From sequence record NC_028847.1: 64,000 bases of DNA; one strand, written 5' to 3'. Below the pieces are notes generated by a model that saw nothing but the letters and a program-made list of their open reading frames with translations, made no database searches and was not told where the DNA came from. Both the position numbers and the translations under genes were made by a program. Each line of letters begins with the position of its first letter. Position 1 is the stretch's first letter. Positions 11,323 to 54,661 of the stretch are shown here, piece by piece. Origin of the DNA: Escherichia phage QL01.

Positions 11323-11937
11323 TCAGTAAGAAAGAACGGAAAGATTCCAAATGGTGTAATTATTCCATTTAGGATTTCTCTCAATAGAGTCTACGCGCAG
11401 CGTAGTTCCCGCAGGGAACATCATCTCATCTTCATCATTGATTAATTGTAAGTTTGCTACACGGGTAGATTCAGGAAATGCACCTGGGAACTCTTCAGGG
11501 GGCGCGGCACATAACATTTTAAAGATTTCTTCCTGATAATTGTACACAAATGGTGCATCATTAATACAAAAGATATTAAATGTGCCGTAGAAGTTATAAG
11601 ATGCGAAGTTACGAGCTACATTGAAATCTTTTGAGAAGCTCATTACTCGGTCGAATTCAATTACGGCACCTACACACATAGTAGATTCAAGATATGCCAT
11701 AGTCTTCTTAGAAATCCCACGGTACAACTTGTCAGGCACTACAGAAGTCAGGTTCTTACGAATAATTTTGTTCAGAGTTTCCTGGATAGTATCCGGTTTA
11801 TTTTCCATACACTGCCAGAGGGTACTCTGTTCTAAATCAGAATACACCTCATCAATTTCTATCTGAGTATTCTCACGGAAATCATCGCATTTGGCATTGT
11901 TGATAAATTCTGCTAATTTATGGCTTGGATATAACAT
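11323..11937 (-). CDS. modB: ADP-ribosyltransferase, ModB-like
   Basis: 204 aa; R-S-ExE signature (LYRG with Arg73, MSFSKD, NDEDEM); tandem with a paralog. Confidence 0.6.
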   Translation of the reverse strand: MLYPSHKLAEFINNAKCDDFRENTQIEIDEVYSDLEQSTLWQCMENKPDTIQETLNKIIRKNLTSVVPDKLYRGISKKTMAYLESTMCVGAVIEFDRVMSFSKDFNVARNFASYNFYGTFNIFCINDAPFVYNYQEEIFKMLCAAPPEEFPGAFPESTRVANLQLINDEDEMMFPAGTTLRVDSIERNPKWNNYTIWNLSVLSY

Positions 11938-11962
11938 ATTATTCTCCTCAGTTGATAGAAAG

Positions 11963-11992
11963 ATAGTACCACAAGCTTCCTTGCCTGTAAAC
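11963..11992 (-). promoter_or_regulatory. early-type promoter cassette
   Basis: GTTTAC, 18 nt, TACTAT. Confidence 0.5.
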
Positions 11993-12561
11993 TAAAAATC
12001 CAACATTTTTAAATGAATTGTTTTGTACTCGATTTCGTACGGGTCCCTTTTGACGGTTTCGATTTCAACAATCTCAAATCTTGATAGGCTGGAGACCATG
12101 AACTCACATTCAGTTTCAACCATATCATAGAGGTCAATACGGGTTTCATCTATTTCAAGCTCATCCACATTCCCTGCAAGAACAAGGTCGATAGCATGAT
12201 TGTAGTAGTCGAAAATGAACGGTGCATTCCTGAGACTTAAAATGGTTTTGGTTCCATATTCCCATGCCCCTGCGAATTGACGAGCCTGAGAGTATTGTGT
12301 ACTAAAAGAAGTAACTCGACCAGGAGACCATTGACAACCTACTGAAAGGAGCTCTAATTGCTCAAGTTCTCTGGTGGTAATCCCACGATACAACTCTACT
12401 GGAACCGCTGAAGTAACATGCTTGCGAACCAGTTTGTCAAGGTCGTAATGGAAGTTAGGGTCTTTTTTAGCATCCAGACATTTTTCTAAAAGATTCTGTT
12501 CGTGTTTTGAGAATTTGGAATTGATTCGGTCTTGATAAAGACATTTTTGTTCGATGTTCAT
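11992..12561 (-). CDS. modA: ADP-ribosyltransferase, ModA-like
   Basis: 189 aa; LYRGIT, SFSTQ and acidic ExE-like region; upstream member of the pair. Confidence 0.55.
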   Translation of the reverse strand: MNIEQKCLYQDRINSKFSKHEQNLLEKCLDAKKDPNFHYDLDKLVRKHVTSAVPVELYRGITTRELEQLELLSVGCQWSPGRVTSFSTQYSQARQFAGAWEYGTKTILSLRNAPFIFDYYNHAIDLVLAGNVDELEIDETRIDLYDMVETECEFMVSSLSRFEIVEIETVKRDPYEIEYKTIHLKMLDF

Positions 12562-16998: not shown

Positions 16999-17439
16999 TT
17001 AACCTCGATTCATAAAGGCATTAAAAATCTGGTCATCTATTGAATAAACCGGAGCTTCCAGAATTTTCAACAGACTGTTTTTGATATACTTGCTAGGGAT
17101 GTCCATATTAACGCGGTCGTTCAATTCGTTGTCTGGGAGGATGTCTTTAAATTCGAATCCATCAAACTCAACCTTGTCAGGAATACCTTCGGCGAAAAAA
17201 TAAACCAATTGGTGCATTGTATTGCGAGAAAATAATTTAGACCTCACCGCAATAAGTTCTTGCCAATGGTTTAATTCTCTGTTAAGAAGTTTATGAGCCA
17301 TTGTAATTCGATCATCGCTATCAACAAGAAAATAACCTAGGTATTGGTGGTCGTCGCTCCAAAACATCCTGTATGCTTGTGCATTTGGATTTTTACAACG
17401 AAGTTTTTTGATAACTAAATTTCTGTTAATCTTATTCAC
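16999..17439 (-). CDS. hypothetical protein
   Basis: 146 aa ORF coupled to neighbours. Confidence 0.45.
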   Translation of the reverse strand: MNKINRNLVIKKLRCKNPNAQAYRMFWSDDHQYLGYFLVDSDDRITMAHKLLNRELNHWQELIAVRSKLFSRNTMHQLVYFFAEGIPDKVEFDGFEFKDILPDNELNDRVNMDIPSKYIKNSLLKILEAPVYSIDDQIFNAFMNRG

Positions 17440-53486: not shown

Positions 53487-53681
53487 TTAAAGACTATTTA
53501 CATAAGCAATTAATTCATTTTCCTTTTTAGAAAACTCATCCTCTTCACCACCTCTCCAATCCCAATCCAGAGAGTTATCAAATTCACATTCTATGTTGAG
53601 TTCCATAAGCTCATGGATAAGCTCAAACAATTTATCTTTCTGTTCTTTACTCAGACTCATAACCATTGCACCTTTAAGCAA
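53487..53681 (-). CDS. hypothetical protein
   Basis: 64 aa acidic. Confidence 0.4.
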   Translation of the reverse strand: MLKGAMVMSLSKEQKDKLFELIHELMELNIECEFDNSLDWDWRGGEEDEFSKKENELIAYVNSL

Positions 53682-53869
53682 TATTCTTCTACATGCTGTT
53701 TACGTTTATTTTTATCTATAAAAGTATATTCAACATATTCACCAATATACCATTTATCGGTGTTGTGTTGACTTTTTATAGGGCATTTAGTTACTCGTGT
53801 TTCGGTCCAGCGTCGAATAATTTCCGCTTTGTTTTTAGGGTCAAACGGATGCGGGTAATGGGCTTTCAT
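53657..53869 (-). CDS. hypothetical protein
   Basis: 70 aa. Confidence 0.4.
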   Translation of the reverse strand: MKAHYPHPFDPKNKAEIIRRWTETRVTKCPIKSQHNTDKWYIGEYVEYTFIDKNKRKQHVEEYCLKVQWL

Positions 53870-54308
53870 AATCTACCACCACTAAATTAATATCAGGAGT
53901 AAACAAATTAATCAATTGGTAAACCTTGTCCCAATCACCACCAGCAATACCACAACCAATGCGAGGGATATAAATTCTTGGTTTAAACAAAAGACCTTTT
54001 GCTTGTTGATTTAATTCTATCATACAGTTTACTAAAGCACCATAATCAAGATTAGGGCCTGGTTCGTATTGGGTATATAAATTATAGCAAATTTGGCCAT
54101 TATTACCTGTGGCTTGAGTAAACGTGCCAAGTTTTGCCAAATTACCTAAATAAGTAGTTTTATCGATAGCGAGAATAGGCGGATAAGCCTTAGCTAATTG
54201 TCCAGCTACACCTGAACCCATTGTGTGGAAACAGTTGCACCCGTGTGCAACATTATTACCTTGAAGAAACAGGGCGACGATATCGCCCTTAATATAATCA
54301 ATAATCAT
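53841..54308 (-). CDS. macro-domain-like protein (possible ADP-ribose binding/hydrolase)
   Basis: 155 aa; N-terminal IKGDIV then G-rich stretch MGSGVAGQLAKA resembling macro-domain GDIT...GGGV motifs; tentative. Confidence 0.35.
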   Translation of the reverse strand: MIIDYIKGDIVALFLQGNNVAHGCNCFHTMGSGVAGQLAKAYPPILAIDKTTYLGNLAKLGTFTQATGNNGQICYNLYTQYEPGPNLDYGALVNCMIELNQQAKGLLFKPRIYIPRIGCGIAGGDWDKVYQLINLFTPDINLVVVDYESPLPASV

Positions 54309-54661
54309 TTAGAGTTTAATCCTCGATTGTATGAGTCAACGAGTCTGTCTACCATAGACGCGCACATTTCTTTGTACTTTTTATCAGATGGAATACATTC
54401 AGTAACGTTTAGACGTTGCTCGTATCTTTTAGAAAGAGTTTTCTCTTTCATTCGGCGATGCTCTACGTCATTCTGGCCATCTTTAAAAGCAGCTGTGATT
54501 TTTGAACTGAATTCGATAATGCATTCAGTATTGCTCGGATGACAATAATCTTTTGCTGTACGGGTAGCATACTCGACAATTGAATTATTACTATCATCAA
54601 CTTGTGACGCTAATACTCCCGGAGCAATCAACATAAGCGCTATAGTCATCTGCTTAATCAT
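54305..54661 (-). CDS. secreted Cys-containing protein
   Basis: 118 aa; signal peptide MIKQMTIALMLIAPGVLASQ. Confidence 0.45.
   Translation of the reverse strand: MIKQMTIALMLIAPGVLASQVDDSNNSIVEYATRTAKDYCHPSNTECIIEFSSKITAAFKDGQNDVEHRRMKEKTLSKRYEQRLNVTECIPSDKKYKEMCASMVDRLVDSYNRGLNSK

What the first reader, a model, noticed from the sequence alone, without database searches (positions are those of the whole stretch)
53841..54308. Possible macro-domain protein in a phage that also encodes two ADP-ribosyltransferases
The 155 aa ORF begins IKGDIV and has a glycine-rich segment (MGSGVAGQLAKA), reminiscent of macro-domain ADP-ribose-binding motifs. With ModA/ModB-like ARTs at 11323-12561, an ADP-ribose hydrolase or reader could tune phage ADP-ribosylation or counter host ADP-ribose or NAD-derived defence signalling. 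The assignment rests on short motifs only.
Basis: inference. Interest (0 to 1): 0.45.

Follow-up and report, generated by a model that had tools for sequence, protein, structure and literature searches.

The report
Known T4-type anti-DarT macrodomain gene (tk.4/adfM)
The ORF is a genuine macro-domain enzyme, the counterpart of phage T4 gene tk.4 (recently named adfM), which most likely strips ADP-ribose off phage DNA to defeat the bacterial DarTG2 defence; it is a correct call but an already described gene.

Summary

The window is a Dhakavirus (T4-like, 99.4% identical to phage E33). The ORF is the syntenic ortholog of T4 tk.4 (53% identity; order tk-tk.2-tk.3-tk.4-vs-vs.1-regB). A 2025 preprint shows that deleting T4 tk.4 sensitises T4 to DarTG2 and renames the gene adfM.

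The most likely function is therefore a glycohydrolase that removes DarT2-installed ADP-ribose from thymidine in phage DNA. One detail that preprint's tk.4 passages do not mention: the catalytic lysine of DarG/TARG1/PhiKZ AdfM is an invariant glutamine (Q80) here. SCO6735 has the same glutamine, and there it is essential for thymidine-ADP-ribose cleavage.

The suggested link to ModA/ModB is not supported. The macro family occurs in about 2,700 phage records, Mod-type transferases in about 1,060. Verdict: fold confirmed, gene already known, low novelty. A conserved RNA hairpin inside the 5' end of the ORF was noticed in passing.

The parts
53841..54308 (-). tk.4/adfM ortholog: 155-aa stand-alone macro-domain protein
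54276..54293 (-). IKGDIV (residues 6-11), first beta-strand; G8 is nearly invariant in the family
   Evidence: Aligns with YIKGD of BT1257 and YVKGD of TARG1.
54234..54248 (-). AHGCN (residues 21-25). H22 and N25 are invariant and correspond to SCO6735 H24/N27, DarG N22 and PhiKZ AdfM N23.
   Evidence: Invariant in 71/71 homologs. Alignment to SCO6735 'AHVCN'. hhalign to PhiKZ gp104. Residue roles come from PMC9411070 and PMC13309987.
54186..54221 (-). MGSGVAGQLAKA (residues 30-41): glycine-rich loop 1 plus following helix, by homology the ADP-ribose/phosphate-binding loop
   Evidence: G33 and A35 are invariant. Aligns with MGAGIA of TARG1. Helix 33-41 in the model.
54069..54083 (-). NLYTQ (residues 76-80). 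Q80 occupies the position of the catalytic Lys of TARG1 (K84), DarG (K80) and PhiKZ AdfM (K78), like Gln85 of SCO6735.
   Evidence: N76, Y78 and Q80 are invariant in 71/71 homologs. Profile alignment to TARG1 pairs T-Q with T83-K84. hhalign to PhiKZ gp104 pairs it with T77-K78. The residue equivalences and the essential role of Q85 are from PMC9411070.
53931..53966 (-). PRIGCGIAGGDW (residues 115-126): second glycine-rich substrate-binding loop. A122 sits where TARG1 has its catalytic Asp125.
   Evidence: P115, G118 and G120 are invariant. Aligns with PRIGCGLAGGKW of BT1257 and PRIGCGLDRLQW of TARG1.
54271..54289 (-). Conserved 8-bp GC-rich hairpin (AGGGCGAU-AUC-GUCGCCCU) at +20 to +38 of the ORF, followed by a U-rich tract. 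Possible attenuator or mRNA-stability element (inference).
   Evidence: Terminator-like hit. Identical stem in T4, HMD-9, pEB20 and Bp7, and a pair-preserving change in GEC-3S. All 4 stem codons are invariant at synonymous sites, against 7/44 elsewhere.
54305..54661 (-). Upstream gene vs (valyl-tRNA synthetase modifier). Its stop overlaps the tk.4 start (ATGA), which suggests translational coupling.
   Evidence: PHROG 1256 E=3e-34. Overlap read directly from the sequence. Same arrangement in Bp7 and T4.
53657..53869 (-). Downstream gene tk.3 homolog (70 aa), overlapping the 3' end of tk.4 by 29 nt
   Evidence: PHROG 2008 E=1e-38. Bp7 annotation.
11323..12561 (-). Two ModA/ModB-like ADP-ribosyltransferase genes (11323-11937 and 11992-12561).
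   Evidence: PHROG 832 E=1e-44 and 1e-37. Their distribution is narrower than that of the macro family.

Best explanation
The ORF is the Dhakavirus ortholog of phage T4 tk.4 (adfM, 'anti-DarT factor macrodomain'). It is a 155-aa stand-alone macro-domain ADP-ribosyl glycohydrolase, probably translationally coupled to vs since the vs stop overlaps its start. Its most likely job is to remove the ADP-ribose that the host toxin DarT2 attaches to thymidine in single-stranded phage DNA, so that replication and transcription can continue in cells carrying the DarTG2 defence system. ADP-ribose would be held between the two glycine-rich loops (MGSGVA and GCGIAGG). Catalysis probably follows the lysine-independent, water-mediated route described for SCO6735, with Q80, H22 and N25 positioning substrate and water. 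Shown here: the macro fold, the class, the orthology and synteny, and the conservation of these residues. Shown elsewhere for homologs: the T4 tk.4 knockout phenotype, the SCO6735 activity on thymidine-ADP-ribose and its dependence on Q85, and the PhiKZ AdfM activity. Inferred: that this particular protein has the same substrate and the same role.
For: Family and fold: Pfam Macro is above threshold. The AF2 model has pLDDT 94.5 and pTM 0.89.

Orthology: 53% identity over the full length to T4 Tk.4, with conserved order tk-tk.2-tk.3-tk.4-vs-vs.1-regB.

Function of homologs: a T4 transposon screen found tk.4 as the only significant hit under DarTG2, and a clean knockout sensitised T4 to DarTG2 (bioRxiv 10.1101/2025.11.20.689424). 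T4 lacking adfA and adfN stays DarTG2-resistant, which had predicted a further factor (PMC11825919). SCO6735 cleaves DarT-made thymidine-ADP-ribose and needs Gln85 (PMC9411070). Q80, H22 and N25 are invariant in 71/71 homologs.

Selection: purifying.
Against: No biochemistry exists for this protein or for T4 Tk.4; the T4 evidence is genetic and comes from a preprint. At 53% identity, substrate specificity could differ. The protein lacks the catalytic Lys of DarG and PhiKZ AdfM. It also lacks the 5-6-residue longer 'mobile loop' that characterises the SCO6735/BT1257 subclass, so transfer of the mechanism from either model is imperfect. The family's bacterial relatives are not encoded next to DarT. 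SCO6735 and TARG1 also act on protein-linked and uracil-linked ADP-ribose, so DNA thymidine may not be the only substrate.
Confidence: 0.75

Rival explanations
1. It is a housekeeping enzyme for ADP-ribose metabolites: an ADP-ribose-1''-phosphate phosphatase or O-acetyl-ADP-ribose deacetylase. That is what the database labels 'phosphatase' and 'O-acetyl-ADP-ribose deacetylase' imply. It would clear by-products of RNA repair or sirtuin reactions.
Against: These labels are inherited from the domain family and were never tested. The only phenotype known for the ortholog is DarTG2 sensitivity. From general knowledge, T4 RNA repair (Pnk/Rnl) does not produce Appr>p.
Confidence: 0.07
2. It is the eraser for the phage's own ADP-ribosyltransferases (Alt/ModA/ModB). 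It would reverse or tune ADP-ribosylation or RNAylation of host RNA polymerase and ribosomal proteins.
For: The same genome encodes two Mod-like transferases. Writer-eraser pairs are common in ADP-ribosylation systems (PMC9503650).
Against: The genes lie about 42 kb apart. The macro family is in 2,732 phage records across many host genera, against 1,060 records with listed genera all enterobacterial for the Mod family, so the two are not coupled. From general knowledge, Alt/ModA/ModB make arginine-linked ADP-ribose, which is normally reversed by ARH-type enzymes or special macros such as MavL, not by the TARG1/DarG class.
Confidence: 0.05
3. It is a broader nucleic-acid ADP-ribose eraser whose important substrate is RNA (uracil-linked ADP-ribose) or the product of another host transferase, with DarT2 reversal being only one facet.
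For: The nearest biochemically studied relatives, SCO6735 and TARG1, efficiently cleave uracil-ADP-ribose on ssRNA as well as thymidine-ADP-ribose on DNA (PMC13036486). The family is very widespread in phages and in bacteria with no DarT neighbour.
Against: No phage-defence system is yet known to make uracil-ADP-ribose. According to PMC13036486, the adenine modification made by CmdT has been described as irreversible. The T4 screen gave a phenotype specifically with DarTG2.
Confidence: 0.1
4. It is a non-catalytic reader or sponge, or a degrader, of NAD-derived immune signals such as Thoeris cyclic ADP-ribose isomers.
Against: The residues needed for hydrolysis in SCO6735 (Gln, His, Asn) are strictly conserved. 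The nearest relatives are all glycohydrolases or phosphatases. The T4 ortholog's phenotype is with DarTG2.
Confidence: 0.03

Closest known systems
Phage T4 Tk.4 = AdfM (anti-DarT factor Macrodomain; bioRxiv 10.1101/2025.11.20.689424)
   Same: Both are 155 aa, with 53% identity over the full length. Same PHROG 335. Same genomic slot between vs and tk.3. Same start/stop overlap with vs. Same NLYTQ, AHGCN and glycine-loop motifs. Even the same 5' hairpin.
   Different: Different genus (Dhakavirus against Tequatrovirus). 47% of residues differ; for example, the second loop is GCGIAGGDW here and GAGIGKGNW in T4. The anti-DarTG2 phenotype has been shown only for the T4 gene.
Streptomyces coelicolor SCO6735 / Bacteroides BT1257 (Gln-type ALC1-like macrodomains; PDB 5E3B, 2FG1/2AFC)
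   Different: Only about 25-29% identity. Tk.4 lacks the 5-6-residue longer mobile loop that defines that subclass. One is a bacterial chromosomal gene, the other a phage counter-defence gene.
DarG2 antitoxin macrodomain (T. aquaticus 5M3E, M. tuberculosis 5M3I)
   Different: DarG is about 330 aa, has a C-terminal DarT-binding domain, and is encoded next to DarT. This protein covers only the macro part, scores 20.6 bits against a cut-off of 250, has no DarT neighbour, and has Gln instead of the catalytic Lys80.
Chimallivirus AdfM (PhiKZ gp104; PMC13309987)
   Same: A stand-alone phage macrodomain that counters DarTG2 by removing ADP-ribose from DNA. Homologous by profile comparison (hhalign 96% probability).
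   Different: Only about 18% identity. The PhiKZ protein keeps the DarG-like Lys (K78) where this protein has Q80. PhiKZ AdfM is imported into the phage nucleus. The two share a name but belong to different macro lineages.
Human TARG1/OARD1 (PDB 4J5S) and yeast Poa1p (6LFQ)
   Different: The TARG1 catalytic dyad K84/D125 is Q80/A122 here. Poa1p is known as an ADP-ribose-1''-phosphate phosphatase.

Membership tests
Macro domain (Pfam PF01661) | Sequence match to the family profile above the curated threshold | tested here: met
   33.4 bits against a gathering score of 22, E=4.9e-8, covering profile positions 2-117 of 118.
Macro domain (Pfam PF01661) | Three-layer alpha/beta/alpha macro fold | tested here: met
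Macro domain (Pfam PF01661) | Binds ADP-ribose in the cleft between the two glycine-rich loops | not testable with these tools
   The loops MGSGVA and GCGIAGG are present, with invariant glycines. Binding itself needs ITC or a co-crystal.
T4 Tk.4/AdfM orthologous group (PHROG 335) | Full-length sequence similarity to T4 Tk.4 | tested here: met
   53% identity, E=8e-63, 155 aa against 155 aa. PHROG 335 E=6e-67.
T4 Tk.4/AdfM orthologous group (PHROG 335) | Conserved position between vs and tk.3 in the tk-regB early-gene cluster | tested here: met
   The neighbours match PHROGs for vs, vs.1, tk.3 and tk.2. The order is the same in Bp7 and T4.
T4 Tk.4/AdfM orthologous group (PHROG 335) | Protects the phage from DarTG2 | not testable with these tools
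   Shown only for T4. It needs a deletion mutant and plaque assays.
DarG2 antitoxin (NCBIfam NF048014, PADLOC DarG) | Two-domain protein of about 330 aa with a C-terminal DarT-binding domain, scoring above the equivalog cut-off | tested here: not met
   155 aa. Matches only positions 3-142 of 329 in the PADLOC model. NCBIfam gives 20.6 bits against a cut-off of 250.
DarG2 antitoxin (NCBIfam NF048014, PADLOC DarG) | Encoded next to a DarT toxin gene | tested here: not met
   The neighbours are vs and tk.3. Among the immediate neighbours of the top 80 bacterial homolog loci (126 ORFs scanned), DarT is not in the recurrent Pfam families listed.
DarG2 antitoxin (NCBIfam NF048014, PADLOC DarG) | Catalytic lysine (Taq DarG K80, equivalent to TARG1 K84) | tested here: not met
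   Q80 occupies that position, invariant in 71/71 homologs.
SCO6735/BT1257 subclass of ALC1-like macrodomains | Glutamine at the catalytic-lysine position, plus the His and Asn of the AH-x-CN motif | tested here: met
   Q80, H22 and N25 are invariant. They align with the Q of BT1257 and with AHVCN of SCO6735. Residue roles are from PMC9411070.
SCO6735/BT1257 subclass of ALC1-like macrodomains | Mobile loop five residues longer than in TARG1/DarG | tested here: not met
   BT1257 carries a 6-residue insertion relative to the Tk.4 family profile right after the Gln. TARG1 aligns without a gap.
SCO6735/BT1257 subclass of ALC1-like macrodomains | Hydrolyses thymidine-linked ADP-ribose on ssDNA | not testable with these tools
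   Needs an enzyme assay on a DarT2-modified oligonucleotide.

The most novel reading that the evidence does not exclude
The T4-type AdfM is not an 'orphaned DarG antitoxin'. It is a member of a separate, very large lineage of stand-alone Gln-type macrodomains: about 2,700 phage records and at least 480 loci in the bacterial and archaeal genome collection, with no DarT partner seen among the top 80. This lineage would use a lysine-independent mechanism like SCO6735 and may act as a general eraser of thymine- and uracil-linked ADP-ribose on DNA and RNA. It would have converged functionally with the Lys-type AdfM of chimalliviruses. In the E. coli T-even genera, its expression may additionally be gated by a conserved hairpin embedded in the first 40 nt of the ORF.
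Probability: 0.5. Interest if true: 0.35.

Novelty: already known. Interest (0 to 1): 0.2.

Why it matters
It confirms that this T4-like phage carries the recently recognised macrodomain counter-defence against DNA ADP-ribosylation by DarTG2. This adds to the layered anti-DarT arsenal of T-even phages (AdfA, AdfN, AdfM). For annotation, the inherited label 'phosphatase' or 'hypothetical protein' on this gene in related genomes should be replaced. The Gln-for-Lys active site and the breadth of the family suggest that the enzymology learned from SCO6735, rather than from DarG, is the right model for the T4-type protein. That matters for anyone designing catalytic mutants or inhibitors. Beyond that, the finding is ordinary.

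Tried and rejected
- The sigma-70 promoter scan of 52-57 kb was uninformative: 15 sites against 13.8 expected.
- An Rfam scan of 53.4-54.8 kb gave only chance-level eukaryotic snoRNA/lncRNA hits.
- A 5-sequence MAFFT alignment with BT1257, TARG1 and PhiKZ gp104 was unreliable in the central region. Residue equivalences were therefore taken from the profile alignments.
- DarG membership was rejected: too short, far below the equivalog cut-off, no DarT neighbour, no catalytic Lys.
- The 'phosphatase' annotation was treated as inherited, not as evidence.
- I looked in the window for the other anti-DarT genes. A tblastn with T4 gp61.2 (AdfA) found only a 14-aa C-terminal match. adfN (gene 30.3) was not searched for; I assume from T4 gene order that it lies outside this window.
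- I looked for a nudE Nudix gene close downstream, as in Bp7. It was not in the expected place, so I make no claim about it.
- One Python run failed because of a file-name assumption and was repeated.

Full report
**Observation.** The window has a 155-aa ATG ORF at exactly 53841-54308, on the minus strand. The start codon overlaps the stop of the upstream ORF (ATGA). The last 29 nt overlap the start of the downstream ORF. This packing is typical of T4-type early gene clusters. The two ORFs at 11323-11937 and 11992-12561 (minus strand) match PHROG 832, 'RNA polymerase ADP-ribosylase', at E=1e-44 and 1e-37. The ModA/ModB statement is therefore also correct.

**Where the window comes from.** A 2.8-kb stretch around the ORF is 99.4% identical to Escherichia phage vB_EcoM-E33 and 96-99% identical to WG01, Bp7, IME08 and others. 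These are members of the genus Dhakavirus (Straboviridae, Tevenvirinae). In Bp7 the equivalent gene is annotated 'tk.4: phosphatase; similar to bacteriophage T4 Tk.4'. It lies in the order tk, tk.2, tk.3, tk.4, vs, vs.1, regB. T4 has the same order, and the window's neighbours match the corresponding PHROGs. The protein is 53% identical to T4 Tk.4 over all 155 residues (E=8e-63). It is under purifying selection: dN/dS is about 0.11 against Bp7 and about 0.25 against T4.

**Is it a macro domain?** Yes.
- Pfam Macro (PF01661) scores 33.4 bits against a gathering score of 22.
- A profile of 71 homologs (alignment A1) hits solved structures in this order: BT1257 (75 bits, E=4e-20), TARG1 (67), SCO6735 (66), Poa1p (57), M. 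tuberculosis DarG (44.5), T. aquaticus DarG (41) and the Thermosipho DarTG fusion (32). Coronavirus macros follow far behind.
- The AlphaFold2 model built on that alignment is confident (mean pLDDT 94.5, pTM 0.89).

The protein therefore belongs to the ALC1-like/TARG1-DarG-SCO6735 class of macrodomains. That is the class known to reverse ADP-ribosylation of thymidine in DNA (PMC9411070).

**What is known about the ortholog.** A November 2025 preprint (HIDEN-SEQ, bioRxiv 10.1101/2025.11.20.689424) infected a DarTG2-expressing host with a T4 transposon library. It found tk.4 as the single significant hit. A clean tk.4 knockout sensitised T4 to DarTG2. The authors noted structural similarity to the M. 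tuberculosis DarG macrodomain and renamed the gene adfM, 'anti-DarT factor Macrodomain'. This fills a gap left by earlier work: T4 lacking both adfA and adfN remained fully resistant to DarTG2, so a further factor had been predicted (PMC11825919). Independently, a chimallivirus macrodomain (PhiKZ gp104, also named AdfM) was shown biochemically to remove DarT2-made ADP-ribose from DNA and to protect the phage (PMC13309987).

**Mechanism.** The best-supported reading is that the window's protein is a glycohydrolase that removes DarT2-installed ADP-ribose from thymidine in phage ssDNA.

One point emerged here that the tk.4 passages of the T4 preprint I read do not mention. TARG1 has its catalytic Lys84 at a position equivalent to Lys80 of DarG, and PhiKZ AdfM has Lys78 there. 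This family has a glutamine at that position (Q80 in the motif NLYTQ). The evidence is the profile alignment to TARG1 and the hhalign comparison to PhiKZ gp104. Q80 is invariant in 71 of 71 homologs down to 36% identity, as are H22 and N25 of the AHGCN motif. The residue equivalent to TARG1 Asp125 is Ala122.

This is the active-site pattern of SCO6735 and BT1257. In SCO6735, Gln85 replaces the lysine. Q85A and Q85E abolish activity on both DNA and protein substrates. H24 and N27 were also mutated in that study. [quoted passage not shown] However, the Tk.4 family lacks the 5-6-residue longer 'mobile loop' that defines the SCO6735/BT1257 subclass. BT1257 shows a 6-residue insertion relative to the profile, and TARG1 shows none. 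The phage protein therefore combines a SCO6735-like catalytic centre with a TARG1/DarG-length loop.

**Not a DarG.** The protein covers only the macro part of the DarG models: positions 3-142 of 329 in PADLOC, and 20.6 bits against a cut-off of 250 in NCBIfam. It has no DarT neighbour. A scan of bacterial and archaeal genomes found at least 480 loci encoding relatives. In the best 80, most ORFs are 146-190 aa (six are longer, up to 528 aa as called) and 78 carry the N-x-Y-T/S-Q motif. Their immediate neighbours (126 ORFs) fall into 138 different Pfam families. No recurrent partner appears, and DarT is not among the recurrent families. Only a few are NAD-salvage or NADAR genes. The T4-type AdfM thus looks like a member of a broad stand-alone Gln-type lineage rather than a recently orphaned antitoxin. 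It is only about 18% identical to the Lys-type PhiKZ AdfM.

The suggested coupling to ModA/ModB is not supported.
- tblastn finds Tk.4-type macros in 2,732 phage records. These include Pseudomonas (183), Vibrio (135), Acinetobacter (93), Aeromonas (86) and Campylobacter phages.
- The Mod-type transferase is found in 1,060 records, whose listed host genera are all enterobacterial.
- The genes are 42 kb apart.
- From general knowledge, Alt/ModA/ModB generate arginine-linked ADP-ribose. This macro class is not known to cleave that linkage; ARH-type enzymes and the unusual MavL macrodomain do.

**Noticed in passing.**

1. An 8-bp GC-rich hairpin, AGGGCGAU-AUC-GUCGCCCU (about -13 kcal/mol), lies at +20 to +38 of the ORF (54271-54289, minus strand). 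It is followed by a U-rich tract and was flagged as terminator-like.
   - The stem is identical in Bp7, T4, HMD-9 and pEB20. In Krischvirus GEC-3S the closing U.G pair becomes U-A, together with a Val-to-Ile change.
   - It is absent from the Karamvirus, Jiaodavirus, Marfavirus, Acinetobacter-phage and Aeromonas-phage homologs.
   - In a five-phage codon alignment, only 11 of 48 conserved-amino-acid degenerate codons are identical in all five. These include all four stem codons, against 7 of 44 elsewhere, roughly p=1e-3.
   - No Rfam family matches.
   - It may be an attenuator or an mRNA-stability element between vs and tk.4. This is inference only.

2. At the position of T4 gene 61.2 (adfA), the window has a 146-aa ORF (16999-17439, minus strand). 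It belongs to a different PHROG (8539 against 3781) and shares only an identical 14-residue C-terminus with T4 gp61.2. This suggests a cassette swap at an anti-DarT locus.

**Verdict.** The gene is the already annotated tk.4 ortholog, and its T4 counterpart has recently been assigned an anti-DarTG2 role. Novelty is low. The remaining interest lies in the Gln-type active site, the breadth of the stand-alone family and the embedded hairpin. None of these changes the basic classification.

Noticed in passing
window 54271-54289 (-), inside the 5' end of the tk.4 ORF: An 8-bp GC-rich hairpin (AGGGCGAU-AUC-GUCGCCCU, about -13 kcal/mol) followed by a U-rich tract. The stem is identical at the nucleotide level in T4, HMD-9, pEB20 and Bp7, and GEC-3S has a pair-preserving change. 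All 4 stem codons are invariant at synonymous sites, against 7/44 elsewhere. It is absent in more distant genera. It may be an attenuator, terminator or mRNA-stability element between vs and tk.4. There is no Rfam match.
   Followed up: partly
window 16999-17439 (-): At the position of T4 gene 61.2 (adfA, an anti-DarT1 factor), between the 61.1 and sp homologs, the window has a 146-aa ORF of a different family (PHROG 8539, against 3781 for T4 gp61.2). It shares only an identical 14-aa C-terminus (SIDDQIFNAFMNRG) with T4 gp61.2. This looks like a cassette replacement at an anti-defence locus.
   Followed up: partly
loci L005-L084 (bacterial genome contigs): At least 480 loci in the bacterial and archaeal genome collection, across many phyla (Rhodobacteraceae, Desulfobacterota, Verrucomicrobiota, Planctomycetota, Bacteroidota and others), encode Tk.4-like macros at 32-43% identity. 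In the top 80, most ORFs are 146-190 aa and 78 have Gln at the catalytic-Lys position. Their neighbours are heterogeneous, with no recurrent DarT; a few are NAD-salvage or NADAR genes.
   Followed up: partly
L003:12518-13006 (PhiKZ gp104) against window 53841-54308: Two unrelated-looking phage proteins have both been named AdfM in the recent literature. The PhiKZ protein is a Lys-type (K78) DarG-like macro. The T4/Dhakavirus protein is a Gln-type macro. They share only about 18% identity.
   Followed up: yes
window 53841-53869 and 54305-54308: Tight gene packing. The vs stop overlaps the tk.4 start (ATGA). The tk.3 start lies 29 nt inside the 3' end of tk.4, whereas T4 has only a 4-nt overlap there.
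   Followed up: no
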